Source: Albugo candida (lineage: Eukaryota). From it: 55,722 nucleotides of DNA. A model generated the notes under the pieces. It saw only the letters and a list, made by a program, of their open reading frames with translations. It made no database searches and was not told the origin of the DNA. The stretch spans positions 868,001 through 923,722 of the forward strand of contig JBDOQK010000004.1 of assembly GCA_040437565.1 (NCBI GenBank), written 5' to 3'. Made by a program: the position numbers and the translations under genes. The number at the start of each line of letters is the position of its first letter. Positions within the stretch are counted from its first letter, which is position 1. This document shows positions 12,295-55,722 of the stretch, one piece after another.

Positions 12295-12843
12295 TGCTAG
12301 AATTATAACAAAAATGTCAGAAATTTATATTACCGTGATTTCTGATCGAAACCTTGTCCACCCGTCCAAATCTACTCCTACCTAAGTGATTGCTTCACGT
12401 CGCCTTAATTATGGGCTTCAGTTTCTACAACCGTCAATTTAGTTGTTGCACACGCGGGGCTCGTAATAATGAAAGCAAAAGAAGCCTTCTTTGATCACCT
12501 CTAAGCATTGAGCAGTTGCTCCAACTAGTAAAGTCGATGCTTTACAATGCGAGGGCTCTTGATAAAGTTATTCACACTGATTAGAGCGAGTTTACGATCA
12601 GCGCTACAATTCGTCGTCAGTACGAAAGTACGTACGCCACCAAACACAATACTGTATTAATTTGCGGCGAGATTATGAAGTTCGGGTGCGATAAGAGCCC
12701 ACATTTCTCTCTCAAGAGATATCAGGAATGCTGAGTTCAAGAAAATTGTTCTGATAGTTAGACACATTGCACTATCACAGATAATCAAGCTATTGTTGCT
12801 ATACGCGTGTACTGTCGCACTGTAGGTGTACACATCTGAAAGA

Positions 12844-14358
12844 ATGGTCCAGAAAGCTTCACCGTTGGCTCTCGTCTTCTTGATCGGGAGTCTAGGTTGC
12901 TGTAAAAGTACTAGAATTACTTTTTCCATGAAAAAAGTTCCTATTCGTCTACTCAACTGCCGCGATTGCATTCTGAAACGCTTCTACGGTGATAGGATTA
13001 CATTAGTGAAACAAGAACCAGAATTCACGTACGAAGTCAACATTCCTGACTATTTTTCAGAGACCTTTCTTCGAGATGTATGCGAAGACTCAAATAATTG
13101 CGACGACATTCGTTTTAATGAGGTACAGTCTGTGACAAAGATGGCTCCTTCAATGTATACATCCATGGCGTATTGTATCGCTGTGGACTACAGATATCTT
13201 ACTGAAGTGGCCACTTGTCAAGATTGTCTGAACATGTATGGCAGCTATATGAGAAAAAACTGGATGATCATAGACACGTTCTATTATTGGATGTTTTGGT
13301 ATTATCCATCAACACAACATTCAGCCGCCTGTTCTCGTGAATGTGGTGGGATCAAAACATTGTCGCGTGCATATTGCGCAAGGGCTGAACCGCAAAATAT
13401 TGATCTAAATGAAATTGCAGAGGAGCCACCTTACCACGAGGTTCACCTGAGATTCAAAAAAAATGAGCGCGCAAAGTGCTTCAAATCACTCGCAAAACAC
13501 ACACACATTTTAGCGCGACTCGAAGGTGATGACGCGTCTGATCGTGCTAAAAGCTGCGCTGTTGTACTTGTCGAATTTCACACTTATACTATTGAACAGA
13601 TGCAAATTGATGTACAGCATGGCGAATCGCCCGCATGTACTTCATTTTCAATTGTGAACGAAAGACCTCATCAAGACACAAAAGAGGCAGATGCTTCGCA
13701 CCTACAAATCAATCGAAATCAGGGAATTGATGTTGAGGCATCTCAATGCTTATACATTATCAGTGCAACAGTACTTTTAAAAAAGTTGAGAGCCACTTTA
13801 ACAGAGAATCTGGAAACTAATGCGTGCCTGGATTGCATCAACAATCTTGTCCAAAATTCTGTGGGGTCCGATATCCGTCTCATATCAAATAAAAGTAGCT
13901 TCGTGTATTTGCCAAGGGCACCGCATCGGGGATATATTGCAGACAGGTGTGGTCAATGCTTGAGTATTACAGTATTTCCTAACGAGTATTGTCAACAAAC
14001 GGCGACGTCATCAATTCCATCATCAGGACTTCCAGCCACAAAATACCAATATCTGGTACTTGAAATCAATTGGCGTAACAACATTCAGATCTTCTATGAT
14101 GTTGTTCTGCGTGTTGTGTTTCATACCGATGTGTATCTGGTGACTACGCCTTCCGATCATATTCATACTAGCGTACATTCCCTTCATACGATCGCAAGCA
14201 TTTGCGCAGCTGTTGCTAGTAAATACGATATCGACGGGATATGCAGCGTTGTTATCGTAGATTTTTCAAGCCCCCTCCGTCCCTTGCCTTTTACAGCAAT
14301 TCTTAGATTGCTTGGTATCACCGGTATTGATCCACTCGAGCTGGCAAGAATTTATTGA
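12844..14358 (+). CDS. Secreted cysteine-rich CCG-like effector candidate, 504 aa
   Basis: Longest ORF in the window, intronless. Signal peptide MVQKASPLALVFLIGSLGCCKS. C39-RD-C42-ILKRFY-G49 near the N-terminus (Albugo CCG consensus is CxxCxxxxxG; here x6). Further modules CQDCLNMYG, CFKSL and CLDCINN. Confidence 0.75.
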   Translation: MVQKASPLALVFLIGSLGCCKSTRITFSMKKVPIRLLNCRDCILKRFYGDRITLVKQEPEFTYEVNIPDYFSETFLRDVCEDSNNCDDIRFNEVQSVTKMAPSMYTSMAYCIAVDYRYLTEVATCQDCLNMYGSYMRKNWMIIDTFYYWMFWYYPSTQHSAACSRECGGIKTLSRAYCARAEPQNIDLNEIAEEPPYHEVHLRFKKNERAKCFKSLAKHTHILARLEGDDASDRAKSCAVVLVEFHTYTIEQMQIDVQHGESPACTSFSIVNERPHQDTKEADASHLQINRNQGIDVEASQCLYIISATVLLKKLRATLTENLETNACLDCINNLVQNSVGSDIRLISNKSSFVYLPRAPHRGYIADRCGQCLSITVFPNEYCQQTATSSIPSSGLPATKYQYLVLEINWRNNIQIFYDVVLRVVFHTDVYLVTTPSDHIHTSVHSLHTIASICAAVASKYDIDGICSVVIVDFSSPLRPLPFTAILRLLGITGIDPLELARIY

Positions 14359-18950: not shown

Positions 18951-19299
18951 TCGTGGATCACGATAACAAGCAGATTGTGTGTCAAGTCCATGACAAACCG
19001 TAGGCTCGTTGCCCTTCGTTCAATGCCACGCGTCCTAATACAACTACTGTGCACGTAATTGCGCGTGTGTGAATAGGGCCGCCTTTGACAGATATTCAAG
19101 TGTGCAAATGATGAAAATCTACACCAGCATCGACATTCGACGACTTGGACTCGAATGGTGGGATAAACTCTTCCTTCGAGCAGTCAGATGTGTCGTGAGT
19201 CAGCTGCAAGTTTAGATGACTGGAGAGATACTGCAGCTTGCTTGAATTTATATTTACTTCCGGAAACGGCCGTACTGAATTTAGACACTGATTTATGAA

Positions 19300-21954
19300 C
19301 ACAAAGTGCGGAATTCCAAGCCGCTCTTTGCGATCATGCAAAAGCATTGGGTGTCGATCTAGTATCAGAGCAGCATCTTCTTCCAATTGTACAGGAAGCA
19401 CTTNNNNNNNNNNNNNNNNNNNNNNNNNNNNNNNNNNNNNNNNNNNNNNNNNNNNNNNNNNNNNNNNNNNNNNNNNNNNNNNNNNNNNNNNNNNNNNNNN
19501 NNNGCAAAAGCATTGGGTGTCGATCTAGTATCAGAGCAGCATCTTCTTCCAATTGTACAGGAAGCACTTTAGCTGAGCTCCTCGTTGGATGGGAGCAAGG
19601 TCAAACGGACGATGGCATGCCTTACTACTTTGATGCTGAATCAGAGAAAAGCACATGGGAACATCCTTTGGACGAACACTATCGCCAGCAGGTTCAATTG
19701 GCGAAAGAAAAGACACATCGTTGGGAGGGTCCGCGTACCCCGTCATTGATATCGCATGAGATAGAAAACAACAATCCGAAAGTAACGGAATCGATACATA
19801 TCACAATGAACAAGTCAATGGCTTTTGGCCGAGATACTTCTTGGCTTTTGGACCAAGAACTTGTCATTGAAAAGCCTCTGATCAATACAGCCGAGGCAAG
19901 GCCTAGTTTCACGAAGACAGACAAAATGATACTTGAGAACGATTTCGAAGAAACTCGGATTGCGTTGTAAAAGTCTCAACACGTAGCAAAAGAAACGAGT
20001 TAATATAAAATGAGATTCGGCGATTCGAAAATGAGTTATCAGAGGCTGAAGGACTCATCTCACACAATGGAAGCAGCACTGGCTGATCAAGTTGCTATAT
20101 GCAAAGAGCGATTCGAATGTGTATGCATGGCTGGAGAAGAAGTACTGAAAGCACACCTGCAAATTCATGAAGTACGTCTTCATTTTTTGAATTAATAAAG
20201 GCCAACAAATCGGCTCAACAAGAATTTGAGCGCTTCAAAAGCATCACAAAGCAGCGTGAAATCGATCTTATACAACAACTTGAGACTTTGCAGCTTCAAC
20301 AAACTCAAGCAAAGTCGCAAGACACTGAAGTTATGGCCCAGGGTCGTCTGGACGCACAAAATCAGCTTGCACTTGAATGCTCCTTGACCCTTGAGAATGA
20401 TCAAAAGCAGATTCTCAAACTGCAAGAAAAGCTTCACCAAAGCATGATTGGTTAGCTGGAAGCCAAGGAAATTGCTCAAAAGCGCTCGCTTGAGGTACAA
20501 GAGCTCCGACTGCTGATTCTTACTGAAAATACTCGAGCATCCAGCGTGAATGAAGAGAAACTGGCAGCTCTGGGTGAATACGAGACTTCACGTCAGCAAT
20601 ACGAGAAGACCGTAGAAGCGCTTAAAATGGAGAATCGGCGGCTGGAATCAGCTTTGGAACAAGAGCAACTTTCGCTTGCTCGTTTCCAGGAACAAGCCGA
20701 GAAAATGGCACCACTGTGAGCATGCACGTATAGAAGACCAGCTTGCTCACACACAGCGCCAGCTTTCGGATGCAGAAGTTCATAAACGCAAATGGCAGAA
20801 TCAGGTCGCTAAGTTGCAAGATCAAAGTGTCGCTCTCAATGCTAATTGGCAAGCCGAGCTCGTGGATGCGCAGCAACAAGCTCGAGAAATGTGTCAGTCT
20901 TAAACAACTCGGCTGGAACGGGAGATACAGAGTCTTGATCGGGAGATACAAGACGCTTCAGATGGATTCCAAGACGCACAGAAGGAGCTGAGAGAAACCA
21001 AGCAAGAATTATCTCTGGAAAAGCACCCAACACAGCAAGACGCTCTCGACCTGGAGAACAAGAAGCGGTGGGAAGCCTTGTTACGACACGAGAAAGAAAA
21101 GCTTGCGGAGGAAAGGCATTCTGCTGGCTGTCAGCTCGCGAGCCTTCAGGCCGACCACAAGAGCCTCAAGCAGGAAAATGCGGACGAGAAGGAGAGATTT
21201 CTCGTTCTAAATCGAGAATTGGAATCTCGTTTGAAGCAGAAAGAGTACGACATACTGCGCGTGGAAGAGCGAGATCTCCATTTACTCCGACTCTCTGAGG
21301 AGATCGCGGAGAGTGACAGCAGAGTTTGGCCGAGCCGAGTTTGAAGATTGAGAAGCCCAGCATCAAAAACAAATCAAAGAACTTCACCAATCCATCGCGT
21401 CACAACTGCCGCAGTTGGCAACCAAGTGTGTCTCGCGAGCTAGCGAAGAAAGGATGCGTACCCACCGTGAATCACTTTCCAAGCGAGCAAATGACGAGCG
21501 TTAGACCTTGATTCGAACATTTCAAATTCGTGAGAAAGAATGGAGGAAAAAGCACGCTCGAGTTGTCGAGGAATCGGAGTTTTGGCGTTGAGATTTGCGT
21601 AAGATGGAATATTTGAATGAGCTTCAAACCCAACAGCTGCAAATGCAGTGGACTCAAAGATCTGCCTCACCGCCTCGGACGATCTCGGTACCGCCATACA
21701 AATCGAATAAACGTGTGAGCGTGCCGTGGCCTAAAGCCGCGTGGGAGCAGCCGATCGTACCCGAAGAGATGGCTTTCGAATACACCAAACTCGAGCATTC
21801 AGCTGATAGCAAACAATTCGAAGTAGAAGGGAGGATGTTGGTACGATCATTGGAATCGGTGGGCAAACCAAAAGTATCGCGAAAAGTCGATTGGAGAGAA
21901 TGTGAGTTTTCGGCTTGGTATCGTACAGATTATTGGAGACACAAGTATCAATGA
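19300..21954 (+). pseudogene. CEP164: CEP164-like WW-domain + long coiled-coil protein pseudogene
   Basis: HAKALGVDLVSEQHLLPIVQEAL/AELLVGWEQGQTDDGMPYYFDAESEKSTWEHPLDEHYRQQV matches the recalled CEP164 N-terminal WW region (GID...WDHPCDEHYR). Followed by ~2 kb of E/Q/K/R-rich coiled-coil coding with many stops and frameshifts (e.g. 19570, 19968). Confidence 0.7.
19338..19569. repeat. Direct duplication 19338-19403 = 19504-19569 around gap 19404-19503
   Basis: 66 bp repeated at offset 166. Confidence 0.9.
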
Positions 21955-27780: not shown

Positions 27781-29872
27781 TCAACCCAGTCAACGGGCTG
27801 ACTAGCCAGTAGCAACCAATACATTAGATTGACTCATACCATCTTATAAAACGAGTACGTAGCAAAAACCATGCAATCCTTTCGGCACGGATAAGAAATT
27901 GAAATGAAGTAATCCATTCGGTTTCGTTGGCCGTAATGCCTCTCCATACGGTCGTGGGCATTTTCCCCCTTAGCCACCAGACAATGCAAACAATTGCCGA
28001 CAAAGTGTTTCACATCATCTTCCAATGTTTTCCACACCACATGTCGTGACAATATCGCTAGCGTTGTCGAANNNNNNNNNNNNNNNNNNNNNNNNNNNNN
28101 NNNNNNNNNNNNNNNNNNNNNNNNNNNNNNNNNNNNNNNNNNNNNNNNNNNNNNNNNNNNNNNNNNNNNNNGATGATACGCGTCGCGTTTTTTTACAGTA
28201 AGCAGAAACTTCTGCAATAATCTGTGCACACTTCTCCGCCTCCGTCGGGTCTTCTGATTCTCTTTTTTCAGCGTTACTGAAGCAGCTCGCAATTTTTGAC
28301 ATGGCCATTTCTACAACGTGGTTATTTTTTAACTTAATGAGACACACTACCGGTCCTTACACATCCACCACATACCTTTCGGCGACTTTACATCTTCGTG
28401 GATGTCACCGTGCTGAATTCGTGAGCTAATGTCATTGACATGTGACTTGGAATCCATTCCCGAACTGAGACCTTGAGTATGGTCGCTGCTGAGATGATAC
28501 TCCTCATTCCCCATTTTCGTGCTGTCCGAGACAGATGCCAATAACACTCTCTCTTCGGAGCTTGTTCGCAGGGTTTGTCCATTCGAGCAGGTAATAAAAG
28601 CCAGGATTACCGCAATAGAAATCGGAGATTTCATCGTGTTTGCTTGTTGGAGTTGTGTTTTGAGAAAAATTGAAGAATGAATGAATGATAGAGCGCTTTG
28701 TTTTCGGAAAACTTTGAAGGAAAATTTGGACGGGAAAAAATTCAGGAGCATATCCCACTTTCTCCCAACATCAAGCAGGAAGAACGTTCCGTCGAGTGTG
28801 CAATTGTGCATTCTATCTTTCGTGATGGGAAGATTGATGCGTTTCTTGTGGAATTCTTTTTGCTACACACTTAAGGTCGAGCGAATTGCCCGCGTCAACT
28901 CGCATCTCTTCTGATACTCCACCTCAGACCGTGAGTTTATCAAACTCAAAAACTCCTCGTCTGTAGCGTGTTTGACGGCTTAAGCGGGAAAGTACCGCTT
29001 TTCGCACCAGTTGGACATCATTCTCTTTTCAACCAATCAGATAGAATCTTTGGTAGAACCGGGAAAATGTCGCAAGGTGAAAAGGAGAGGGGCACGCTTC
29101 TATTGGTGCAATAGCCAGAGTCAGACATACACTCGCGAAGCGTTCTTCAACTTGCGACGAACTTGCTCTAAAATAGAAGATTCTATATTACACACATTGC
29201 GCGCATGCCGTGCGTTCTTGAAGACGATCACGAAGGATGGATGAAGAATACGTTTCGGTTCAATGAGCGCAAATATGCCAAGCGATTTTCCACAATTGCA
29301 GTGCCTGTATTGTAATTTCCTTTTTTTGTGTTGCATTATATACTATTTTGTTTATTGGTAAATGTTTTCAAGCGACTGCGTGGCGCAAAGGATAGCGCAT
29401 CTGACTATTGTTAAAGAGGTTGCGGATTCGAGGCCCCTCTTGGCCATATCACTTACGATCCTTCATTGGAATGCGTGATTCTTATACTCAGCGAATCAAA
29501 GACCGTCCTTTGATGAATTTCTGTGTTATTGTGATTTGAAATGTATATTCTTGGGACTTGTAGCGTATACTTCAAAGATATCATTAGCTATAAGACTAAA
29601 CGGTTCAAATCGATCAAATAGTCAGTTCGGATCATTTGTAAACTCGATGATACAATATTGGAGAGCTTCCTACGCCACGAAGATTTTCATTCAGTGATAG
29701 AGTTTAAAGCAACAATAAGTAATTCGCGTATGTTCTCAATCTGCTTCTTCTCTGAGCTTTTATCGGATCATGCGAGTACTACTCGAGCTCCCCGATACAA
29801 TGCCGACATCACCGTCAAGAAGATTGATCTGTTGAAGAAGAGATGCAAGGTTGTTGTAACTTATTCAGAAAG

Positions 29873-33882: not shown

Positions 33883-34685
33883 GAGAATATTGGGATTTTA
33901 TACCACTTTGAACATGGTTTAGATACCAAAAGTTTCAGAAATATCGATTATACACCAAAATTTAAACAAATATGGTTTTTATACCAAAAGTTGAAACAAT
34001 ATGGATTTTATACCAAAAAAATATGGATTATATACCAATAGTTGAATAAATATGGTTTATATACCAAAACGAATATAACACGGGCGAAATTGAAAAAAAG
34101 AAAAATACACCAAAAAATCTGACGTTTATTTAAAAGTATGAAAAATATACCAAAAAGTCTGAAGTTTACACATTCTTGAGTGCTATATCGTTAGAATATT
34201 CACATCTGGCGACTATGAGGACTGCCAGCGACGACGTCTACGCTGGTGAGACACAAGAGTCAAGGGACGGCTGTTCACCAGGGGACTGGGCATACGGGCG
34301 TGCATACTTGTACTCACGCGACTACGCCAGTCGCGACGATATAACAAGTGCGATCATTGAATACAACGAAAAAGTTGGACGAGCGTCTCGTGTCATAACG
34401 AGCGACCATAGACGCTACAATGTATTGTGTGCCGATCCAAATTGCAGCTTCGCAGTCGCTTTTGCGTATGGTAGGGGATTTGAGCCGTCTCATACGTTCG
34501 TGCCGCACACATGCGACGCAACGAGGGTGACTTGGCTTCATACGAAGTGAGTCGTGGAAACAAGTCTTCATACGTCGCTTTGATTGACTCGGCCCTCCAG
34601 TTCGTCATTGATAAGGGTCGTGACGCCAGTCCAGCTGAGATGCAGAAGAAGCTGATGGCTGATGGGCGTCGATTGACGTACCAGA
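33883..34685 (+). mobile_element. MULE (Mutator-like) element: left TIR with tandem subrepeats and 5' part of a MuDR-type transposase
   Basis: TIR gagaatattgggattttataccac plus ~29-bp repeats (atatggWtttataccaaaagttgaa). ORF from 34215: SRDDITSAIIEY...SDHRRYNVLCADPNCSF...PHTC (MuDR C-x4-C...HxC domain), frameshifted, running into gap 34686-34785. Confidence 0.75.
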
Positions 34686-34785
34686 NNNNNNNNNNNNNNN
34701 NNNNNNNNNNNNNNNNNNNNNNNNNNNNNNNNNNNNNNNNNNNNNNNNNNNNNNNNNNNNNNNNNNNNNNNNNNNNNNNNNNNNN

Positions 34786-35751
34786 CGCTATGGCCACATA
34801 CATTAATACTACGGCCACAGACAATTGATCTAACCAATCACAGCTCACAAAATTATATTGTTGCTAAGTACGCCAGAACTGGCGAAGCAGCAAATATAAA
34901 TAGTACCTTTCGCGCAGCCGACCCCATGGCGACGTCATGACAATCCTTCGTTCGGACTTTCCCGGTTATACAACAGCTGAAGAACTCACCGAACGAAACA
35001 TTCGAAATCGTTATTTGGTTTTGCCCCTGGTGACATTTTTTAACATATCAACCGGAAGATCTCATATTACACCCTTCGGAAAGTATTTCAACAGGTTAGT
35101 TTATAATATTCCTTTCTTCCTACGTGTTTTTTACAATCACTAAAGTTTCGCAATGATAGCTACAAAAAGCTCCATGTCCAGTGGCAGCCGGCGCGAAGCC
35201 ATGCTCTTCTACTTATATTACTATTACTTTTAATTCTGAAAATAGAAGTTATAAAAAACAATTTTTTTATTTTTCTCAACAGCAACATTCACCTTTCCAC
35301 CATCCTAATCTTTAGTCTCTACTATTAACCTACCATATACAGATATCAGGAAAAACCGTACCTACGCTAGAACAACATAACAAAAAGCGTAAGAAACAGA
35401 ATGAGCTCGTGTACAAAAGTAGACAAGTGACCTGATTGGCTAGCGTAATTAGCAACAATATAATTTTGTGAGCTGTGATTGGTTAGATCAATTGTCTGTG
35501 GCCGTAGTATTAATGTATGTGGCCATAGCGGCTCTCTTTTGATAATTTTACATAATGTTTAGACCTTCTCGTGTATTTTTTTATAATTTTACGTGTAATA
35601 TTCGTTTTGGTATATAAACCATATTTTTTCAACTTCTGGTATATAATCCATTTTTTGTATAACTTTTGGTATATAATCCATATTCTCTTAACTTCTGGTA
35701 TATAAACCATCTTTTTTTGAAAAAAAAGTGGTATAAAATCCATAGGTTCCC
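34786..35751. mobile_element. Non-autonomous MULE-type element or right end with long TIR
   Basis: 34786-34867 is the exact reverse complement of 35449-35530. 35531-35751 is an inverted, diverged version of the 33883-34150 TIR, ending ...gtggtataaaatccataggttccc. Confidence 0.75.
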
Positions 35752-35889: not shown

Positions 35890-37230
35890 ATGGACCCACT
35901 CACCTACGATGCAGTTCTCGCGCTCTTCGATGACGAAGAAGAGAAATTTGCGCTTGTGGATTTTGTGCGACGCTCGCAGTGGTCTCAGTAACAAGAAGAA
36001 GCAGGCGGTAGAAGAAGCACGGTGGCTCATGTCCTGGAAGGCGCTCAAACCGAGGGAGAAGCCATCGATATGGTCACAACCGAATCATGTCTGACTACCT
36101 CGTCGAGCGCCCGGTGCTCTCTGACTAGCATTTCCGGCGGCGTTTTCGGTTGATCCAATCGGTCCTCTCGCGTGTAGTCGACTGCATTTCGTCAAATCCC
36201 GCTTATTTTTTTAGGAGCCAGACGCTGTCGATCGTCCGGGTCTCTCCGCTATCCAAAAAGCACTAAGCGCGATACGCCAGATTGAGTATGGAGCACCAGC
36301 AGCCCTATGGACGACTACGTCCAAATGGCGGAAACAACCGCGCTTGAGAGTTTGAAGCGGTTCTGCGTTGCTGTGGTCGACTCGCTAGGTGACGAATACC
36401 TTCGCGGACAGTCAACCCAGGACCTGTCGCTCTTGCTACGAATTGGAGAAGAAAGAGGTTTTCTGGAATGCTTGGCACTTTGGATTGCATGCACTGGCGC
36501 TGGAAGATCTCCCAAAAGGCTGGGCGGGGAAGCTCACCATAAAAGAGAAGGCGCCGACGGTCGTGCTCGAAGCTGTCGCAGACTATGAGGGCTGGATGTG
36601 GCACCTCTTTTTCGGCATGCCAGGGAGTCACAACAAAATCAACGTACTTGATCGATCACATCTATCCATCCACGGATCTCATGGATGGAAGGGCTCCTTC
36701 GGTATCGTACTAAATCAGCGGTACACATTACTCGATGGGCTACTATCTTGCGGACGGAATCTACCCGCCTTGAGCAACACTGGTTCAGACAATCTCCAAT
36801 CCTCAAGCTTAGAAGAAAAAGGTATGGAGAAATGCTGGTCTGTTTCATATTGACACTCACTTGTGTGCCACGAATTATTTGCTGAAGCACAGGAATCGGC
36901 GGTCGAGCGAGCGTTCGGAATGCTGCAATCCCTATACACGATAATGACAAGACCGTGCCGTCTTTCGAGTCAAGAAGACATGACGTACACTGTGAAAGCA
37001 TGCGTCATCCTGCGCTGCATGTAAAATGAGGACGACAGGGAGCCCGATGGAATCATTCCCGAGAGGAGTGTGCAAGACAGCATTACATTCTCCACCACGG
37101 TCGTCATTGCTCCTAACCTAAGCATAGATAGAGCATTTACGAGCTTCATTAGTCGTTACAAAGCTACTCGAAGCAGTGAGCAGCATTATCAATTGCGCAA
37201 TGATCTAACCGAACATCTGTGGGCTTGAAG
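35890..37230 (+). mobile_element. PIF/Harbinger transposase pseudogene
   Basis: MDDYVQMAETTALESLKRFC...DEYLR, LDCMHWRW, KEKAPTVVLEAVADYEGWMWHLFFGMPGSHNKINVLDRS, GYYLADGIYP, VERAFGMLQ and QLRNDLTEHLW. Confidence 0.9.
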
Positions 37231-37313: not shown

Positions 37314-38740
37314 CTACACTCTTTCTAACTCTTCTTCCAATGCAGCACTTTGTGCGTCGGCCTCTTTTTCAGAAAGCGAGATGAGCTCAGGATCCATTGC
37401 CATGGTGACAGCTTGCGCCGACTCAATCTCTTGTTCTTGTTGGCGTAGATCTCGGAGAATACGACGCTTTTGTAGCATGAAATATTCACGCGCAACTTCG
37501 TTTAGGAATTCGACGTTCGTGCACATGATCTGGTTGTTCGCAGCCAGTCGCTGAGATTCAGCAAGCCTCTCGAGAGCGACAATCTTGTTTTCTGCTATCA
37601 CTGCTAATTTGGCGCTGCTCTTGGCGACACTCGAAAGAGTTTTGGCGATCGACGTGTCGATTTCACCTTGACGTGCCTTATATTTTGCTCCACGACGACC
37701 AATTGGGAGGCTGAAATTGTTCTCGCTGAGCTCTGCGTTGTTTGAAACGCTGGACTGGGTCGAGCTTGCTCCTTGCGACTAATTTTTCTTAGGTCGGCTA
37801 CGTTTGAGGTTCTCCTGCATTTATCAGCAAAAGTAGTGATAAAATACAGCGACGCGTGTTGCCAATATAGCAGAATTACTTTGCTAGGATCGATAAAATC
37901 TCTACAGTTCTGGCAATCCTTTAGCAGCTCCCAACAGGTCACGTGTTTGAATGGTCTACCACGATCTTGTAAATAGAGTGTGTGCGCGTTGGCAAGTGGC
38001 TTCTGTGTGGTCGTTGCGCCTCTCTCGTTACGCCTATGAATAGCTGAACAACAGCCTAAAAACTTGCTGACGGCTATTTGAAGAAGCTGCCAGCGATTCT
38101 TGCAGGCTTCGTTTTCTGAACGTCGTCAAACGACCTTGGCAGATGCGCCGAGAACTCTGCATGCACACGATCCGAAAAATTTTCGGCGCGCTGCTCGTTG
38201 CCGTGACGGGGTCCTGCGCGATTGCCAACCACCCTCGCACAAGCGTGTTNNNNNNNNNNNNNNNNNNNNNNNNNNNNNNNNNNNNNNNNNNNNNNNNNNN
38301 NNNNNNNNNNNNNNNNNNNNNNNNNNNNNNNNNNNNNNNNNNNNNNNNNTGCTAGGATCGATAAAATCTCTACAGTTCTGGCAATCCTTTAGCAGCTCCC
38401 AACAGGTCACGTGTTTGAATGGTCTACCACGATCTTGTAAATAGAGTGTGTGCGCGTTGGCAAGTGGCTTCTGTGTGGTCGTTGCGCCTCTCTCGTTACG
38501 CCTATGAATAGCTGAACAACAGCCTAAAAACTTGCTGACGGCTATTTGAAGAAGCTGCCAGCGATTCTTGCAGGCTTCGTTTTCTGAACGTCGTCAAACG
38601 ACCTTGGCAGATGCGCCGAGAACTCTGCATGCACACGATCCGAAAAATTTTCGGCGCGCTGCTCGTTGCCGTGACGGGGTCCTGCGCGATTGCCAACCAC
38701 CCTCGCACAAGCGTGTTTTCCTCAGCCTCCATTCAGTTCT
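37314..38740 (-). mobile_element. PIF/Harbinger second ORF (Myb/SANT-like, NAM-associated), degenerate and convergent with the transposase
   Basis: EENTLVRGWLAIAQDPVT, CWELLKDCQ and IMCTNVEFLNEVAREYFMLQKRRIL are typical of PIF ORF1. Confidence 0.75.
37882..38717. repeat. Direct duplication 37882-38249 = 38350-38717 around gap 38250-38349
   Basis: 368 bp at offset 468. Confidence 0.9.
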
Positions 38741-40789: not shown

Positions 40790-43070
40790 ATCTTCAAAAT
40801 TGAAGCGACACAATTGCACGTGAATTCTCAATCACTCGACTGCGCACCTTATTGAGCGACAATCGCAATCCTTGACCGCTCACCCATATGGAATCCCCGC
40901 ATGCAATGGGTCTCGCAACGGATAGTCGAGTCTTTCGAGACAATTGTGACTCCCAAAGATGCAAATGAGTTCCTCCTGAACGATGGGGTAAAGAGCACTT
41001 TCGACGACCGTCAAGGCGGTAAAGAACTCTGCAAAGTCTTTATACATCACGTAGCTGAACCTCCACCTCCCAGTGAGGCTGACAGCCAGCTACTTGATTC
41101 AAATGCCTTGGAGCCTCAGGTATTAGCTCGTGAGGCCAATCTTTGTCTTACGTTAGGCTCTTCCTCGCACTTGCGTTCCAAATCGTGCTACTTCTTACGT
41201 GTAACCTCAGACACCAAGCCAGTCGACGTTCAGAAAGCTTGTGACGCAACGCTATACTTTGGCGAATTAGCACCCAATGTATTTCGAGACGTGGGCAAGA
41301 CGCTCAGATTCCCTTCACGCCGCTTTTCAAGGCCAAAGATGATTGGGTACCAGCAGATATGGAGCTTCGAAATGAATTCATGAACGAGTGGGCAAAGTTC
41401 TCCAACGATCTGAAAAAAACCCCTCAATAGCATGTATAGCGCTTGGAGCTCCGACGGCCTAGTCCTGAGATCGTAATAGACGCAACCGCTTCGTCTCGTA
41501 CCTCTGGTGGAAGTAATGGGTCCCTACAAACACGTTCTGTACTTCAAGTGGTTGATCCCCCAAAAATCATCTCAATGAGGAGGTTTTAGGAAGCTGGTGT
41601 GACGTGATCTCCGCCGATGTGGAGACCACCAACGTAGGATCATCCGACGTCAACAACATCCTTCAAGACGAAGATGCCATCGAAGATGAGGGGCCGATGG
41701 GGAAGTTGGAGTACTGGCGGCGTCGTATGCAGAGGATCATGAGCATCACTGAGCAGATCAAACTGAGCGACATGAAAGACGTCTTTCTCGTACTGCATCG
41801 AGCTTCCAAAAGTGTGCACGAAGACCTCCGTCAACGTTTGCATAATTTGCTGCGACTCTGGAAACAGGTCGACATTCGCATCACCGAGGCTGTAAACGAA
41901 GCAAAGGATAACGCAAAGTCCCTTTCAACCTTGGAGAAATTTCTGATCTCTCTGTACAACCGGACGCCAAGCACGATCATCAACACGCTCCCAGCCCTGA
42001 TAAAGTCGATCAAAATGATCCATTCGATAGCTCGGTATTACAACACGAATGAGAGAATGACGGGGTTGTTGGGGGAAGACCACGAGTCAAATGATTTTCA
42101 ATTGTAAGAGCCATGTCACTGGTGGGGAATCCTACAAAGGCTTTTGGGAAAAAGACCCACAAGAGCTCGCGCCAGTTGAACGCCTTCCTGAAGCTCAATG
42201 AAGCATACCAAAAACAATATCGCGTCACGAAAGAAATGCTTTTCGACTCAACCAAAGGTGGAAAAGCAGTTTGAATTCAATGAGATGAGGATATTTGGAA
42301 AGTTTGATCTATTTTGCCGTCTAGGGTCAAATTGATTGACACGTTTACGACCATCCACCAATTCAGCGGCTTGGGATCCCACAAGCTGGAAGGTATGGAG
42401 AATTTGATCGCGAAATTCAGTGCCATTGTTCGTGAGTTTCGGTACCGGAATCACGACTTGATGGACTACAAGAAAAAAATCGATTCGATCGCGATTTTGT
42501 CGAGTTCAACGTGCGAATATCCGACCTGGAAAGCCATCTATAAAAGTTCATCCACAACTCCTTCGAGAACTTCACTTCCATCGAGCAATCTCTGCGCATT
42601 TTGCGCAAATTCCAGGCGAATTTGCAACGGGAAAACCTCAAAGCCGATTTGGATTCCAAACTTAACGTCATTTTCCAAAAGTACGGATTGGAAATGGAGC
42701 ACGTGCTTCACGAATACGAGCGAGAAAAGCATGAGCCTCCATACCCCCGAAATCTGCCCCCAGTAGCCGGAAATATCACGTGGGTTCGTCACCTGTTACA
42801 GGGAATCGAGGAGCCTATGAAGAAATTCGAGACAAAGAAGAACGTTCTCGCGAGTAACGACGACAAAAGGATCATTCGCATGTACAACAAAGTTTCGCGG
42901 ACACTTGTTGCGTTTGAGTACATTTGGTATCAGTCATGGACGCAATACATTGACACTGCCAAAGCCTGATTGCAAGCAACGCTCATAATACGCCATCCTG
43001 ATGATAACAAGCTGTACGTGGATTTTGACCCGGAAATACTCCAGATTTTACGATAAGCGAAATGTGCTGA
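40790..43070 (+). pseudogene. Axonemal outer-arm dynein heavy chain (DNAH5/DNAH8/gamma-type) 5' fragment, DHC_N1 region
   Basis: GPMGKLEYWRRRMQR, ITEAVNEAKDNAKSLSTLEKF, IKMIHSIARYYNTNERMTGL, IFGKFDLFC and PRNLPPVAGNITWVRHLLQGIEEPM. Many frameshifts. Ends abruptly at a Tc1 ORF. Confidence 0.9.
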
Positions 43071-50682: not shown

Positions 50683-50725
50683 AAAACATTCAACATTTGA
50701 AACATTCAACATTTAAAACATTCAA
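50683..50725. repeat. ~15-bp tandem triplication (aaacattcaacattt) inside Copia gag
   Basis: aaaacattcaacattt-gaaacattcaacattt-aaaacattcaa. Confidence 0.7.
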
Positions 50726-53208
50726 GGGACCAATATTTTACAGGCTAAAGAAATGTTCCGCAGAGAGTTTAAAGGCTTACAAAGAAAGGAAGCTAATCAA
50801 GTGGCGTTGCGAGCTACGAGGTACAAGAACAAAGGTCCCCGTAGGGAATGGAATAGGATTAAGAAACTCCACAAAAAGGTCGATATCAAATGCTTTCATT
50901 GTAACAAGCTTGACATATGAAAAAGGATTGCTAGAAATTAACAATCAAAATAAAGAAAAGAGCGAACACGCTTTTTCTTCCTATGAAAGTAATCAGTGTG
51001 AATGGATACTACTGGATAGTGATGCATCTGGCCACATGCCATTCAATCAAAAAGATTTCATCCAGCTTCACCCGATGAAGAACCATGTCAACATATCAAT
51101 TGCAAATGGAGGGAAGCTAGAAGCAACGGGTATCGGAAATATACATTTGGCACTTCCAAATGGAGAAAAGATTCGCGTGGAAGATGTTATGTATGTTCCA
51201 AAGCTCGACAAACGACTCTTGTCAGTACTGCAATGAACAGAAAAGGTATACAAGTAACTTTTGGAAAGTCAAATTGTGAAATCAGCAGTGAAACGACAAA
51301 GATTATCACTAGTGAGCGCAGTGGAAAAGTATTCGTATCATATGGAATTATATCTGAAAGTGCTCTTTTTGACAAAGAGCAGCAACACACACTAGAAGCG
51401 AATGAAGAAATATGGCACGCAAGATTAGGACACATATCAAAATAGAGGATGGAAAAAGCTAAAAAGTACGTGACAGGATACAGAATTAAGGCTCAACAAA
51501 GCTATTTGGAAAACGAAAACGTTTTATCTGAAGGATGCTTGGATAGAAAAGCTTTTGTAAAACCTAAAATCAAGACAAAGAAAACTCTGGAATTAGTTCA
51601 TAGTGATGTCATGGGTCCAATGAGGAAAAAGTCACAAGGTGGTACAAGGTAGATGGTATCATTTATCGACGATTATTCCAGATATGTCAAAGCTTAATTC
51701 ATGAAATTCAAAACCGAAGTAGTGGACTCATTCAAAAACTACAAAGCGTTTATGGAAAATCAGACCAGTAAGGAAATCAAGAGCATCAGAACCGATAATG
51801 GCACAGAATATATGAAAAAATCATTTGGAGCAATATGTCTTGCAAATGGTATCCGACAGCAAACGACTGTTCCTTTCTCTCCGCAGCAAAACCAACTAGC
51901 TGAAAGGATGAACAGAAAATTGACGGAAAGTGCACGTTCAATGCTTTCACACATGAACTTGGATGAAATTTGGTGGGCGGAAGCAATGAATACAGCTACC
52001 TGTATTACAAATCGTCTACTGAGGGCATCAAACGGAATCAAAACACCTCGTGAAATCATGTTTGGAAACCGGATATCTCACATTTCATTATGTTTTGCTC
52101 ACCTGGATTTGCGCACGTCGACAAATCGGAAAGATCGAAATTCGAGAACAAGGGCGCTCCTTGTATTTTCTGGGCTAATTCGAAGATGCAAAAGGATATC
52201 GCATCGGGAATCAAAAACGAAGACGAATTGAGCTAACACGTTCGGCAACGTTTGAAGAAAAGACCCCGCTCAATTGTTGTAGAAATATTACACACAGATG
52301 GTAATGCAACAGACCAGGTTTTCGAAGATTCGGATAATGATGAAATCACACTTGATGCACGAAATGATTTTAATGATGTCTCGATGGAAAACATTGAAGA
52401 GAATAACGATCAAGGATGCCACGATACCGAATTGGAAGAAGACGAGGTTGACAGAAGCATTGTACCTAGGGGGAGCATAGATGGTTCGAATGGCTCGCCG
52501 TTATTTGTCCCATATAGGTCCAATACTGCACTACCGACTGGTACGAACGAGCAAGAAATAGTTACTTATGAACAATCAACGGCAATAGTACCATCACACG
52601 ATCGTCCATGAAAAATATACAGGATTGAATATGAGCAGGCAAACGCAGCATTAGAGACATCTGCGACATATGACGAAACAGTTCATTCTCCAGAAGGTAG
52701 ATTCTGGAAGCAAGCTATTGAAATTGAGCTGTCAGTATAAAAGAACATAATGGTTTGGACATGTGTAGATCGAATTCCGCTGAAGAAGGTCATTGGTACA
52801 AAATGGGTATTTACAATTATCAGAAAGGAGTACGGTAAAATTGACAGATACAAAGCCCGAGTAGTTGCTTGGATATAGACAAACGCATGGGGTGGACTAC
52901 ATGGAAACTTACTCGCCTGTGGCCAATATGAATTCAATTCGAGAATTTTTAGCTTATTGATGTCACATTGGAGCTTATATTCATCAATTTGATGTGTACG
53001 CGGCATTCTTAAATGGGAACTTGAAAGAAGAAGTGTATGTTTTTCTCCTAAAGGATTCAAAATTCGTTCAAACAAAGTTCTAAAATTAAATCGAAGCCTC
53101 AATGGATTGAAACAAGCTGCATCGACTTGGTACAAGACTATCTCAGACTTTAACATTGAAATGAACTTCAATCAGTGCAAGAAAGACCCCTGCATCTTTG
53201 TTAGACGA

Positions 53209-53962
53209 CAGGGTAAATCATTCTTACTGGTCACATTGTACGTTGATGATATACTCATTGGATCACAATGCAAGGATAGAATTGGCGATTTTTGACGATG
53301 AGTTATCAAAACATTTTAAGCTCAAGAAACTTGGCAATGTTCGATTCGTAGTTGGTATTGAAGTAAACTATGATCGACTGGAGAAAGTAATGTGTATCAG
53401 TCAGAAAGCAAGCGTATCGAGAATGGTCGAGAAATACAATCAAGTCAAAGCTAAAGAAGTTGCTAATCCTTGTATTAAAGACACTTCCTCACGAAAATCG
53501 AAACAAAAGATCAATTGGCTGATTTCTTAACGAAANNNNNNNNNNNNNNNNNNNNNNNNNNNNNNNNNNNNNNNNNNNNNNNNNNNNNNNNNNNNNNNNN
53601 NNNNNNNNNNNNNNNNNNNNNNNNNNNNNNNNNNNCAGGGTAAATCATTCTTACTGGTCACATTGTACGTTGATGATATACTCATTGGATCACAATGCAA
53701 GGATAGAATTGGCGATTTTTGACGATGAGTTATCAAAACATTTTAAGCTCAAGAAACTTGGCAATGTTCGATTCGTAGTTGGTATTGAAGTAAACTATGA
53801 TCGACTGGAGAAAGTAATGTGTATCAGTCAGAAAGCAAGCGTATCGAGAATGGTCGAGAAATACAATCAAGTCAAAGCTAAAGAAGTTGCTAATCCTTGT
53901 ATTAAAGACACTTCCTCACGAAAATCGAAACAAAAGATCAATTGGCTGATTTCTTAACGAAA
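53209..53962. repeat. Direct duplication 53209-53535 = 53636-53962 around gap 53536-53635
   Basis: 327 bp at offset 427. Confidence 0.9.
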
Positions 53963-55100
53963 GTCATTTCGACGAAACAATTCCAGCAATTGGTGCGGAA
54001 ATCAAACGTCTGGAATTGTGCATCGAAGAGTGTCGCAATGGCATCAGCCAATCATAAGATCGGAAAGTGGTTCTGCCAATCGGATGCTGATATTCGAGGT
54101 CAAGAAACAATGTAAAGACAGTGCATCATATTCCACCAATCAAGATTGATAGAGCGGAGCTTATAAGGCAATGCGTAAAGGCTAGGGCTTAGAATAGTAA
54201 CAACAACTAAGAACCGTAATATAATCACTTTCCCTTGTACCAACTAAAACAACATAAATACATATTGCACATTGTCAAAAGTAGACTGCGATTGATCTAC
54301 TATATAGCAGTCAAATGTAGAACGAAATTCCTAACCGATTCTCCCTACTCAATGCTTTCATTTGATGTTATTATCAAGCGACAACGCATTCGTAGGCTAA
54401 CAAAGGACATTTGAGCTTCTTTAAAAAGCATGTAATGAACTTTAAAAAAAGATTAATATTTATGAACTAAAAAAAGCTATACTATTCTACACTGACTTTG
54501 CTCGCTGAGTGACGCGGTTGTGCACGGAACAATATTACATCCAGCTCCTCAACTTCACTGGCTTCAATTGCGTCGGATGTAAGGAGTGGACCATTAAGAT
54601 CGTCTACGCGCTTTTTCACGGCTTGCAAGTCACTGGCAAGCTATTCCTATACTTGGTCATCCTGGCCTTGTTCAAGAATGAGCTCTTCCAGACGAAAATA
54701 GCGATCTTGGACTTGTCGCATGTGCCCATCATCTTCCACCACCGTTTCCAGATGACGCATCTGGTTATGTCGAGCCAACTCATTCCTGGCGTCCGCGTCA
54801 CTTTTAATGCGCTAAAAAAACGTCTCTTATTCACGCGTGGGACAAATCTCGTCTCCTCAACGAGATTTCCATTTGCGTCTATCTGCTGGTGCATCTTCCG
54901 GCAATGGCGACGCTAATTCCTTGCCACCATCGTCCTACGTCTAGCAAGAGAAGGAATAAGGCAGACCCCTCCAACATTACTTGATTCAGACATTGCGTTT
55001 GAACAATGAGTGTATTCGTCGTTTCGCCGAACGGTTTTATACACTATCCATTTTTGTTTTGAAAGCTAGGGTCCGTTTCGTCGCATTCAGAGAAGTGAAG

Positions 55101-55137
55101 GAATAATGAATAATGAATAAGGGTTTAGGGTTTAGGG
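55101..55137 (+). repeat. (GAATAAT)x~3 abutting an internal telomere seed GGG(TTTAGGG)2
   Basis: gaataat gaataat gaataa gggtttagggtttaggg. Confidence 0.9.
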
Positions 55138-55254
55138 TGCTGATATACGGGGAGAGATGCCCAGACGAGAACTGTGTAGACCCAAAGAGCTTGAGATTCT
55201 ATTAGAAAGTTAACACAGTAGTGAGAAGACTATACAATAGAGCTAATAGTCTAA

Positions 55255-55280
55255 TAGCGCACTTTCGCTGACTTCATCAG
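55255..55280 (-). ncRNA. Minimal type I hammerhead-ribozyme-like motif
   Basis: Minus strand reads CUGAUGA-A-G-UCAG-C-GAAA-G-UGCG-C-UA, inside inverted repeats (55245-55251 with 55287-55293; 55236-55243 with 55306-55313). Confidence 0.55.
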
Positions 55281-55337
55281 TGGGCCAACTATTGACACTC
55301 ACCTTGCTCTATCAATAACACTTGTGTAGTACAAGGT

Positions 55338-55492
55338 AAATTGAATAGTGAGCACGGAAATGCAAAATCGATGGCCAGGAGCGTCCGAGAAAGCTGATAG
55401 GCTTTTAACGGGCTCCAGAGGGCTCTCCGTTGGTCCATAAAGTCGTAAAAACTGCGCATTGGCTGTTAAGTAACGTGCTGGACGCGGATTGG
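55338..55492 (-). promoter_or_regulatory. Centromere-facing Pol II-type promoter: INR-FPR (55338-55353) and two CCAAT boxes (55458-55462, 55488-55492)
   Basis: GCTCACTATTCAATTT versus oomycete consensus GCTCAYTYYNCAWTTT (1 mismatch). CCAAT boxes ~110 and ~140 nt upstream on the same strand. Confidence 0.55.
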
Positions 55493-55658
55493 CGGAAATA
55501 ACGGGTGGCGTAGCCAGGAGGAAAGGTGTTGCTGGGATGTGGTGGGAATGTATCGGGTACCGGTTGTGCCATCAGGAGTGAGGAGGAATATGAAGGCTCC
55601 CAGCAATTCACGGTACTATTGGTGTGGATATGTGTGTGAGGGCATATAGAGGTGCATG

Positions 55659-55722
55659 GGGTTTAGGGTTTAGGGTTTAGGGTTTAGGGTTTAGGGTTTA
55701 GGGTTTAGGGTTTAGGGTTTAG
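55659..55722 (+). repeat. Telomere (TTTAGGG)n, chromosome end
   Basis: GGG + 8 perfect TTTAGGG units + TTTAG running to the window end, G-rich strand 5'->3' towards the terminus. Confidence 0.97.

What the first reader, a model, noticed from the sequence alone, without database searches (positions are those of the whole stretch)
55121..55722. Telomere-capped ~520-bp non-coding unit with inward promoter, hammerhead motif and 3' C-strand telomere repeats: candidate non-autonomous telomere-attaching (Penelope-like) retroelement
Seen, reading the minus strand from the chromosome end inwards: (CCCTAAA)n cap, two CCAAT boxes, INR-FPR (predicted start ~55349), a hammerhead-like core (55280-55255), then ACCCTAAACCCTAAACCC (55138-55121). 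No credible ORF. Established: endonuclease-deficient Penelope-like elements (Athena/Coprina type, reported in rotifers, fungi, stramenopiles and plants) sit at chromosome ends with 5' ends facing the telomere. They carry short reverse-complement telomere repeats at their RNA 3' end, thought to anneal to the G-overhang, and are capped by telomeric repeats. Penelope-like terminal repeats carry hammerhead motifs. Inference: 55121-55137 marks a previous chromosome end onto which an RNA was reverse-transcribed and then re-capped by telomerase. The unit would be a compact promoter+ribozyme module mobilised in trans by a PLE RT or by telomerase. Alternatives are a promoter for antisense subtelomeric RNA or a telomerase-RNA-like gene with a CCCUAAA template.
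Basis: partly seen in the sequence, partly recalled or inferred. Interest (0 to 1): 0.9.

Follow-up and report, generated by a model that had tools for sequence, protein, structure and literature searches.

The report
Patchwork chromosome end, not a ribozyme retroelement
The window ends in a real telomere with a short older telomere remnant 520 bases further in, and the non-coding stretch between them is a cut-off piece of a low-copy repeat with no self-cutting RNA motif, so it looks like an ordinary rebuilt chromosome end, though a telomere-attaching retroelement is not excluded.

Summary
The geometry is confirmed. A (TTTAGGG)9 cap lies at 55659-55722, a 2.7-repeat internal tract at 55120-55138 in the same orientation, and 520 non-coding bases lie between. 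Contigs of three DNA runs (X1, X3, X4) bridge the internal tract, so that joint is not a mis-assembly.

The hammerhead is not supported. Rfam gives no hammerhead at E<=10. The core pattern occurs at chance frequency. Only 7 bases separate CUGAUGA from GAAA, which leaves no room for helix II.

An oomycete-type INR-FPR start motif at 55338-55353 (-) is credible, but no ORF follows it.

The 520 bases are not a discrete unit:
- They are a mosaic of low-copy repeats, about 1-9 times single-copy depth.
- A related copy reads on past the cap site without telomere repeats.
- Another copy is capped after 55205.
- X4 lacks the window's cap and X1 lacks the other one.

Best reading (0.5): a telomere-associated block was joined to an eroded former telomere, then cut short and healed by telomerase. 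A 5'-truncated telomere-attaching retroelement remains possible (about 0.17), but no defining Penelope-like feature beyond geometry was met. Interest is low to moderate.

The parts
55659..55722 (+). Terminal telomere array, (TTTAGGG) 9.1 copies, running off the window end
   Evidence: The junction at 55658/55659 is covered by an X1 contig (55535-55661, 0 other letters) and an X3 contig (55287-55685, 3 other letters). No X4 contig listed shows this junction.
55120..55138 (+). Internal telomere tract ('seed'), 2.7 perfect repeats, same orientation as the cap: remnant of a former chromosome end
   Evidence: It is the only internal match in 55.7 kb. It is bridged, with 45 or more letters on each side, by contigs 54182-55183 (X1, X4; 1 other letter each), 54192-55183 (X3; 0) and 54884-55206 (X14; 0).
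55139..55658 (.). 520-base non-coding block, 47.7% G+C, G-rich on the + strand in its distal 200 bases; a cut-off mosaic of low-copy repeats
   Evidence: no coding signal; summed contig depth relative to the single-copy flank is 3.0-9.0x over 55140-55310, 1.5-2.8x over 55311-55538 and 0.8-7.6x over 55539-55652. Variants carry 0, 7 and 20 other letters per about 140. There is no second copy inside the window.
55338..55353 (-). Oomycete-type INR-FPR core-promoter-like motif; the predicted start A is at 55349, pointing inwards
   Evidence: 9 sites against 1.65 expected in the window. The consensus is quoted in PMC4636286 (passage). The first ATG downstream, at 55277, opens only 8 codons. Transcription was not tested.
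55263..55280 (-). CUGAUGA-7 nt-GAAA: the claimed hammerhead core, judged a chance match; it holds the first ATG after the INR
   Evidence: Seven bases cannot form helix II plus a loop (read from the sequence).
55101..55120 (+). (GAATAAT) 2.9 copies abutting the internal tract; a 7-base period like the telomere unit, unexplained
54255..55100 (.). Single-copy proximal flank with decayed minus-strand frames; 54659-54766 has low-copy relatives
   Evidence: depth 7.77, 59.6 and 133.1 in X1, X3 and X4, with loose ends at 54659, 54695, 54705 and 54766. One search lists the frames. One search finds no Pfam family. Searches give only low-complexity or coiled-coil matches.
54031..54254 (.). High-copy repeat at the end of the copia-type element upstream, about 20-40 times single-copy depth
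   Evidence: bins 54057-54227, loose ends before 54031 and behind 54254; integrase core (26.5 bits, below Pfam's cut-off of 32.6) and Pol beta-barrel ORFs at 50685-52231.

Best explanation
This is a rebuilt chromosome end of an oomycete-like eukaryote, not a mobile ribozyme module.

An earlier end lay at about 55138 and had eroded to about 2.7 TTTAGGG repeats. A piece of a low-copy telomere-associated sequence was then joined to it.

The route I think most likely is this. The short remaining repeats paired with an internal telomere tract at the head of a related block on another chromosome end, and that block was copied outwards. This is break-induced copying, as with yeast Y' elements. Simple end-joining of a broken fragment is the alternative route.

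The new end was later broken or eroded at 55658, inside the repeated sequence, and telomerase healed it with the present cap.

The inward-facing INR-FPR and CCAAT motifs are either a relic of whatever the donor sequence carried or the start of a non-coding subtelomeric transcript. They are not part of a retroelement life cycle.

Shown:
- the two telomere tracts and their shared orientation;
- the reality of the inner joint in three DNA runs;
- several diverged copies;
- a related copy that reads on past the cap site;
- a second cap position;
- differences between isolates;
- no hammerhead and no coding signal in the block.

Inferred:
- the order of events;
- the joining mechanism.
For: - Tracts and orientation.
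- The inner joint is bridged by contigs of X1, X3 and X4, and also X14.
- Beyond 55183 the contigs branch. The stretch 55177-55316 exists with 0 and 7 other letters in X1 and X4. In X3 the same stretch exists with 0 (55154-55316) and 20 (55158-55302) other letters. 55325-55556 exists with 0 and 17 in X1.
- Copy number is uneven and not monotonic. The ratios along the block are, for X1, 4.4, 3.0, 3.0, 2.7, 2.2, 2.2, 2.8, 3.3, 1.4. For X3 they are 9.0, 6.1, 7.2, 2.5, 2.2, 2.2, 2.2, 6.9, 7.6. This is the pattern of a subtelomeric patchwork.
- An X3 loose end behind 55642 shares the last 8 letters before the cap at the same offset. It then goes on with 8 non-telomeric letters, so 55658 is a cut inside a longer sequence (read).
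- An X4 contig of 3349 letters covers 55527-55658 with 12 other letters and a 13-letter insertion, and is mostly off the stretch.
- A contig in X4 (depth 95) and one in X3 (53.3) join 55205, 16-19 other letters and at least 27 letters of telomere repeat. X1 shows no such joint, and X4 shows no window-type cap.
- No hammerhead. No direct repeats in the block. No coding signal.
- Precedent in an oomycete: in Phytophthora parasitica a conserved 1,080-bp block whose head is imperfect TTTAGGG repeats lies just inside the telomere at four ends (PMC7290008, passages).
- Precedent for the mechanism: critically short telomeres starting DNA synthesis in internal telomere tracts in C. elegans (bioRxiv 10.1101/2022.09.04.506531, abstract start in the listing). 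The yeast X/Y' arrangement is recalled, from no call.
Against: - The same geometry is what endonuclease-deficient Penelope-like elements leave: an internal telomere tract, an element with C-strand repeats at its 3' end, a variable distal cut, and a telomerase cap (PMC3846280 and PMC8557442, passages).
- In all three DNA runs, depth is highest right next to the internal tract. A series of 5' truncations would also give this.
- Bookkeeping on the binned depths suggests that the unlisted extra copies reach 7-15 letters into the bin that holds the internal tract. A conserved telomere-type head on several copies would fit either copying from an internal tract or retrotransposition, and would argue against one-off end-joining. 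The tool warns that summed contig depth is not a copy number.
- I could not read the other copies. 168 contig pieces and 34 loose ends were not shown, and no genome is held. What the longer copies encode is therefore unknown.
Confidence: 0.5

Rival explanations
1. The block is the 3' terminal 520 bases of a longer retroelement. The element attaches by its C-strand repeats to the G-overhang of a short telomere, is reverse-transcribed from there, is 5'-truncated, and is then capped by telomerase. It could be an endonuclease-deficient Penelope-like element or another RT-dependent terminal element. This is the reader's idea, amended: a truncated copy rather than a compact non-autonomous module.
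For: - Geometry and orientation.
- Several copies, two different cap positions, and longer copies.
- Depth is highest next to the internal tract in X1, X3 and X4.
- 16-19 extra letters lie at the other cap, as often seen at 5' joints of retro-copies (the comparison is recalled).
- EN-deficient elements are described from protists including diatoms (PMC13159263 and PMC4209133, passages).
Against: - No hammerhead, although the literature read here reports such motifs in all PLE sequences examined, near the 3' ends (PMC8557442, PMC4209133; tests).
- No RT or other coding similarity in the block or the flank.
- No RVT-type domain in the 20 of 30 long ORFs of the window that I scanned.
- No terminal direct repeats.
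- Depth rises again at the distal end in X3 and slightly in X1. A pure 5'-truncation series cannot give this.
- A RepeatMasker table for one Albugo candida assembly lists 0 Penelope elements (PMC13585763, passage). This counts only if the window is from that genus, which no call shows.
Confidence: 0.17
2. A one-off capture. A broken 520+ base fragment of a dispersed low-copy repeat, for example a piece of a transposon or of a gene's upstream region, was ligated by end-joining to a critically short telomere and then capped. No other copy carries a telomere tract at the position of 55139.
For: - The flank contig ends at 55183 in X1, X3 and X4. The other copies therefore differ from the window at or just before 55153.
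- The 878-letter X3 contig aligns only from 55158 outwards and is otherwise off the stretch.
- The block carries a promoter-like motif, as an upstream region or an LTR would.
Against: - Depth bookkeeping suggests that the extra copies reach into the internal tract.
- A second telomere-capped copy in the same orientation argues that the family lives at chromosome ends.
Confidence: 0.15
3. Whatever its origin, the block works as an inward-firing subtelomeric promoter. It would make a non-coding minus-strand RNA from about 55349 that carries CCCUAAA repeats about 210 bases downstream, an antisense-of-TERRA type transcript. This concerns function and does not exclude the explanations of origin.
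For: - An INR-FPR match at 55338-55353(-), in a window where the motif is five-fold enriched.
- Three CCAAT boxes upstream.
- No ORF downstream.
Against: - No transcript evidence of any kind.
- The motif has 2 mismatches.
- The CCAAT count is barely above the background rate.
Confidence: 0.25
4. A telomerase-RNA-like gene with ACCCUAAACCCUAAACCC as its template.
For: A template-like run on the minus strand downstream of a promoter-like motif.
Against: - 2.6 repeats is longer than the templates I recall (recalled, from no call).
- The run lies about 211 bases from the predicted start.
- The block is multi-copy and variable between isolates.
- No Rfam family matches at E<=10 apart from a 13-bit telomere-letter match.
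- No fold signal.
Confidence: 0.02
5. An assembly artefact: a telomere-bearing contig wrongly joined to the scaffold through the short repeat.
For: The scaffold has seven 100-N gaps, each flanked by exact duplicates, so the assembly is imperfect.
Against: Independent contigs of X1, X3, X4 and X14 bridge the internal tract with 45-68 letters beyond it. A zero-difference path to the cap exists in X1. A 3-difference contig reaches the cap in X3.
Confidence: 0.03

Closest known systems
Endonuclease-deficient Penelope-like elements (Athena, Coprina; e.g. Coprina-1_Alen of Ascochyta lentis)
   Same: They sit at the very end of a chromosome. [quoted passage not shown] Telomerase caps the truncated distal (5') end. 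C-strand repeats lie at the 3' end if the minus strand is the sense strand (PMC3846280, PMC8557442, PMC13159263; passages).
   Different: No hammerhead, no RT ORF, no coiled-coil ORF and no terminal direct repeats were found here. The block is a mosaic with uneven copy number. The primary paper (Gladyshev and Arkhipova 2007) is not held, so I know it only through the papers that cite it.
Phytophthora parasitica 1,080-bp block headed by imperfect TTTAGGG repeats, with a PpSat1 solo repeat, just inside four telomeres
   Same: It is in an oomycete. An internal TTTAGGG tract heads a conserved non-coding block that lies next to the telomere at several ends (PMC7290008, passages).
   Different: Its size differs, and it is associated with a satellite. 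No sequence comparison was possible. The alignment is in a supplementary figure that I did not see.
Yeast X / internal TG tract / Y' arrangement, and Y' spread by recombination when telomeres are short
   Same: A subtelomeric block is separated from unique DNA by a short internal telomere tract. It is shared by some ends, in a fixed orientation, and spreads without a dedicated RT (recalled, from no call).
   Different: Y' is 5-6 kb and encodes a helicase. Here the block is 520 non-coding bases, cut short.
Chromosome breakage and healing by de novo telomere addition; internal-tract-primed synthesis at short telomeres in C. elegans
   Same: The cap sits at an arbitrary point inside a sequence that continues in a related copy. 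Cap positions differ between isolates. The C. elegans work is known to me from the abstract start in the listing.
   Different: Healing alone does not explain how the block came to lie beyond an older telomere remnant.
Type I hammerhead ribozymes of Penelope-like elements
   Same: The letters CUGAUGA and GAAA, in the right order, on the strand that carries the C-strand repeats.
   Different: Only 7 bases lie between them, so there is no helix II. Protist and fungal PLE hammerheads are described as having a large helix III and a stable monomer fold (PMC4209133, passage), and nothing of the kind is found here.

Membership tests
Endonuclease-deficient Penelope-like element (Athena/Coprina) | ORF with a PLE-type reverse transcriptase (DKN motif, RT1-7, thumb) | tested here: not met
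   0 of 8 frames of 54485-55659 hit Pfam at E<=10. The 84-aa frame has no homologue. A 5'-truncated copy could lack the ORF.
Endonuclease-deficient Penelope-like element (Athena/Coprina) | Hammerhead ribozyme motif near the 3' end, next to the reverse-complement telomere repeats | tested here: not met
   no Rfam hammerhead at E<=10; pattern at chance frequency; z = -0.52. There is no room for helix II.
Endonuclease-deficient Penelope-like element (Athena/Coprina) | Short reverse-complement telomere repeats at the 3' end; terminal position; distal end capped by telomere repeats | tested here: met
   This geometry is not specific to the family.
Endonuclease-deficient Penelope-like element (Athena/Coprina) | Several copies at chromosome ends, same 3' end on different flanks, variable 5' truncation | tested here: inconclusive
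   Several copies and two cap positions were seen. The 3' ends of the other copies were not visible. The depth profile is not monotonic.
Endonuclease-deficient Penelope-like element (Athena/Coprina) | Flanking direct repeats (pLTR) | tested here: not met
   No direct repeat in or around the block.
Hammerhead ribozyme, type I | Conserved core with helices I, II and III and a cleavage site | tested here: not met
   and the 7-base spacing read.
Telomere-associated subtelomeric block headed by an internal telomere tract (Y'-like; P. parasitica 1,080-bp block) | Block lies between an internal telomere tract and the telomere, in the orientation of the telomere | tested here: met
Telomere-associated subtelomeric block headed by an internal telomere tract (Y'-like; P. 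parasitica 1,080-bp block) | The same block, with its tract, at several chromosome ends | tested here: inconclusive
   Copies at about 1-9 times single-copy depth and a second capped copy. Whether the others carry the tract is only hinted at by the depth bookkeeping.
Telomerase RNA | Single conserved gene with a template of about 1.5 repeats, a pseudoknot and a three-way junction | tested here: not met
   The block is multi-copy and variable. There is no Rfam match and no fold signal. The template length criterion is recalled.

The most novel reading that the evidence does not exclude
The block is the 3' end of a telomere-attaching retroelement family in an oomycete that lacks the hammerhead. 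The family would pair its C-strand repeat tail with eroded telomeres, be copied by an RT encoded on the longer copies (or by telomerase or a LINE RT in trans), and be capped by telomerase at variable 5' cuts. The differences between isolates X1, X3 and X4 would then record recent activity.
Probability: 0.15. Interest if true: 0.65.

Novelty: new member of a known kind. Interest (0 to 1): 0.3.

Why it matters
If the ordinary reading holds, this is one more example of how chromosome ends are rebuilt: a former telomere remnant, a copied subtelomeric block, then breakage and healing. It comes from a group, plant-associated oomycete-like organisms, whose subtelomeres are barely described. The cap position differs between isolates, which could serve as a strain marker.

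If the retroelement reading holds, it would extend telomere-attaching retroelements to oomycetes. It would also show that the hammerhead is dispensable for them, which bears on the proposed kinship of such elements with telomerase.

Tried and rejected
- Whole-genome search: no genome is held for this window.
- Earlier findings of this scan, by sequence, by place (genome, relatives) and by words: nothing for this genome. The word search 'Penelope telomere' gave only rotifer cases.
- Metagenome contigs, scanned with a 28-base stretch of the block: 0 matches. I did not use the second scan. That stretch lies within the overlaps of the listed contigs and shows no listed difference in the three DNA runs, so a blank means the organism is not in that collection.
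- RNA evidence: no RNA holder is listed. X14 is only guessed to be RNA, and its depth pattern follows the DNA copy numbers, so I draw nothing on expression from it.
- Coding reading of the block. I checked by hand whether the differences of the X3 variant restore a frame after the ATG at 55277. One stop is changed but a second remains. A hydrophobic frame next to it has no start codon, so I dropped the idea of a secreted-protein gene 5' end.
- Flank frame 54650-54811(-) against 1.84 billion representatives: 2 hits at E about 1e-7. Both are long low-complexity or coiled-coil proteins with many spurious Pfam rows, so this is uninformative.
- Naming the organism: the 510-aa ORF 12826-14358 found 3 relatives, all unnamed and from run assemblies. 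'Oomycete' rests on three things. These are the TTTAGGG repeat (proposed for oomycetes, PMC11139960, passage), the INR-FPR enrichment and the plant-metagenome holders with about 35 million letters of contigs. The genus Albugo was a guess of mine, used for two literature look-ups, and no call shows it.
- Bacterial promoter and terminator scan: irrelevant for a eukaryote.
- Gladyshev and Arkhipova 2007 is not held.
- Supplements were not opened. The alignment of the P. parasitica block (a supplementary figure of PMC7290008) and the element lists of the PLE papers might bear on the comparison.
- No positive control with a known hammerhead was run for the Rfam searches.
Full report
**What is there.** The window ends in 9.1 perfect TTTAGGG repeats (55659-55722). 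A second, 2.7-repeat tract lies at 55120-55138 on the same strand. A 14-base telomere pattern with up to one mismatch matches only these two places in 55.7 kb. That is 8 matches, 7 of them overlapping in the cap, against 0.00 expected. The 520 bases between them (55139-55658) are 47.7% G+C, and the distal 200 bases are G-rich on the + strand.

**The hammerhead.** The claimed core is CUGAUGA, seven bases, then GAAA (55280-55263, minus strand).
- Rfam's covariance models give no hammerhead at E<=10 in 54000-55722 or in 55100-55420, and none at gathering score in the whole window.
- The only row is a 13-bit match (gathering score 86) to a Plasmodium telomere-associated RNA, carried by the telomere letters.
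- The pattern CTGATGA N3-33 GAAA occurs 3 times in the window against 2.10 expected, and 40 of 100 shuffles have at least 3.
- CTGANGA occurs 30 times against 35.2 expected.
- Seven bases cannot make helix II with a loop.
- The surrounding 131 bases fold no better than shuffles: z = -0.52, and 64 of 200 shuffles fold at least as well.
- Protist and fungal Penelope-like hammerheads are described as stable monomers with a large helix III (PMC4209133, passage). Nothing like that is present.

I reject the hammerhead. I ran no positive control.

**Promoter motifs and coding.** The oomycete start-site consensus GCTCATTYYNCAWTTT is quoted in PMC4636286 (passage). With up to 2 mismatches it has 9 sites in the window against 1.65 expected, and 0 of 100 shuffles reach 9.
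- Two pairs of these sites lie in an assembly duplication, so about 7 are independent.
- Three CCAAT boxes lie upstream on that strand, at 55458, 55488 and 55618, against about 0.7 expected.
- Downstream, the first ATG (55277, inside the 'CUGAUGA') opens 8 codons, and nothing longer than 92 aa follows.
- 0 of 8 frames of 54485-55659 hit Pfam at E<=10.
- The 84-aa frame that is open at the cap has no homologue among proteins of near or longer length.

The block is non-coding, with a credible but untested inward promoter.

**What other isolates show.** No genome is held. I therefore laid contigs of three DNA runs of 'organism A' from three studies (X1, X3, X4) and one run of uncertain kind (X14) on 54000-55685.

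(a) The inner joint is real. Contigs 54182-55183 (X1 and X4, 1 other letter each), 54192-55183 (X3, 0) and 54884-55206 (X14, 0) bridge the internal tract.

(b) Beyond 55183 the contigs branch.
- 55177-55316 exists with 0 and 7 other letters in X1 and X4. In X3 the same stretch exists with 0 (55154-55316) and 20 (55158-55302) other letters.
- 55325-55556 exists with 0 and 17 other letters in X1.
- Summed depth relative to the single-copy flank is 3.0-9.0x over 55140-55310, 1.5-2.8x over 55311-55538 and 0.8-7.6x over 55539-55652.
- The tool warns that such depth is no copy number, so these are rough figures.
- The profile is highest next to the internal tract in all three runs. It rises again distally in X3 and slightly in X1.

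(c) The cap site is a cut.
- An X3 loose end behind 55642 carries, at the same offset, the last 8 letters before the cap. It then continues with 8 non-telomeric letters.
- An X4 contig of 3349 letters covers 55527-55658 with 12 other letters and a 13-letter insertion. The rest of it is off the stretch.
- If record coordinates are given in the record's own direction, that contig runs on for about 3.2 kb beyond 55658. I cannot verify that convention, so I lean on the loose end.

(d) There is a second cap. A contig in X4 (depth 95 against 133 for single copy) and one in X3 (53 against 60) join 55205, 16-19 other letters and at least 27 letters of telomere repeat, in the same orientation.

(e) The isolates differ.
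- X1 and X3 show the window's cap: contigs 55535-55661 and 55287-55685.
- No X4 contig listed shows it, and depth in X4's last bin before the cap (55596-55652) equals that of the 3349-letter variant contig alone.
- X1 shows no 55205 joint.
- X3, with twice the contig letters, shows both.

**Reading.** The 520 bases are not a self-contained module. They are a cut-off, mosaic piece of a low-copy family that lives at least partly at chromosome ends.

Two families of mechanism give exactly this picture.
- The first is recombination and repair. A telomere eroded to 2.7 repeats either invaded an internal telomere tract at the head of a related block on another end and copied it (as yeast Y' elements spread; recalled), or was ligated to a broken fragment. 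Later breakage and healing by telomerase set the present cap.
- The second is terminal retrotransposition, as in endonuclease-deficient Penelope-like elements (PMC3846280, PMC8557442; passages).

I prefer the first (0.5, plus 0.15 for the one-off ligation variant) for five reasons.
- Every feature specific to the second that I could test failed: hammerhead, RT, direct repeats.
- The depth profile is not the monotonic series that 5' truncation gives.
- Subtelomeric patchworks with internal telomere tracts at block borders are common. One is described in an oomycete: a 1,080-bp block headed by imperfect TTTAGGG repeats just inside four telomeres of Phytophthora parasitica (PMC7290008, passages).
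- The window's last 5 kb hold a copia-type element on the other strand and no PLE-type RT. Among the 20 of 30 long ORFs that I scanned, none has an RVT domain.

I keep the retroelement reading at about 0.17. Its positive predictions were partly borne out: other copies, the same orientation, variable caps. I also could not see what the longer copies encode.

**What stays open.** Depth bookkeeping suggests that the unlisted extra copies reach 7-15 letters into the bin holding the internal tract. If true, several copies start with a telomere tract. That would favour copying from an internal tract or retrotransposition over a one-off ligation. It is an indirect figure from binned sums, so I give it little weight.

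Expression is untested, because no RNA holder is listed. 'Oomycete' is an inference from the repeat type (PMC11139960, passage), the start-motif enrichment and the plant-associated holders. A RepeatMasker table listing 0 Penelope elements in one Albugo candida assembly (PMC13585763, passage) counts only if my guess of the genus is right.

**Verdict.** This is a new member of a known kind, a subtelomeric block behind a telomere remnant at a healed end. Interest is 0.3. The boldest reading still open is a hammerhead-less telomere-attaching retroelement in an oomycete, with probability 0.15 and interest 0.65 if true.

Noticed in passing
window 5745-5844, 8818-8917, 19404-19503, 28072-28171, 34686-34785, 38250-38349, 53536-53635: There are seven gaps of exactly 100 N. 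Six are flanked by exact duplicates of 66 to 300+ bases (families D1-D5 and D7). The seventh, at 34686-34785, abuts one arm of a 91-base inverted repeat (see that item). One duplication repeats about 3.4 kb (24749... and 28172...), which doubles the ORFs of a pogo/Tc5-like element. These look like scaffolding artefacts, and they inflate repeat and motif counts.
   Followed up: partly
window 55101-55120: (GAATAAT) 2.9 copies directly abut the internal telomere tract. The period is 7 bases, like the telomere unit, but the letters are unrelated. It is present with 0-1 other letters in the bridging contigs of X1, X3 and X4. It is unexplained.
   Followed up: no
window, 9 sites (11807, 20624, 23772, 25079, 25244, 28502, 28667, 51271, 55338): The oomycete INR-FPR start-site consensus is about five-fold enriched in the window (9 against 1.65 expected). 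This supports an oomycete origin and could be used to place gene starts.
   Followed up: partly
window 50685-54254: A copia-type retrotransposon lies on the + strand just inside the end. It has a Pol beta-barrel domain, an integrase core (26.5 bits, below Pfam's cut-off of 32.6) and RT-like ORFs. An N gap interrupts it. Its terminal repeat at 54031-54254 has 20-40 times single-copy depth in the runs laid.
   Followed up: partly
window 34786-34876 and 35440-35530; 34018-34082 and 35592-35656; 35605-35715: There are two nested inverted-repeat pairs (91 nt at 98% and 65 nt at 92%). Next to them is a three-copy repeat spaced about 30 bases apart. They lie about 0.7 kb upstream of a PIF/Harbinger-type ORF (36389-36853, Plant_tran). 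These are possibly the ends of a DNA transposon or a foldback element.
   Followed up: no
window 54659-54766: A short stretch inside the otherwise single-copy flank has relatives at about 3-8 times single-copy depth, with loose ends on both sides. It lies in decayed minus-strand frames that look like coiled coil. Its family is unknown.
   Followed up: partly
window 9593-10378, 19299-19970, 41556-42107: Ordinary host genes lie within 15-45 kb of the end: ankyrin repeats, a WW domain and the N-terminal region of a dynein heavy chain. The subtelomere is therefore gene-bearing, not purely repetitive.
   Followed up: no
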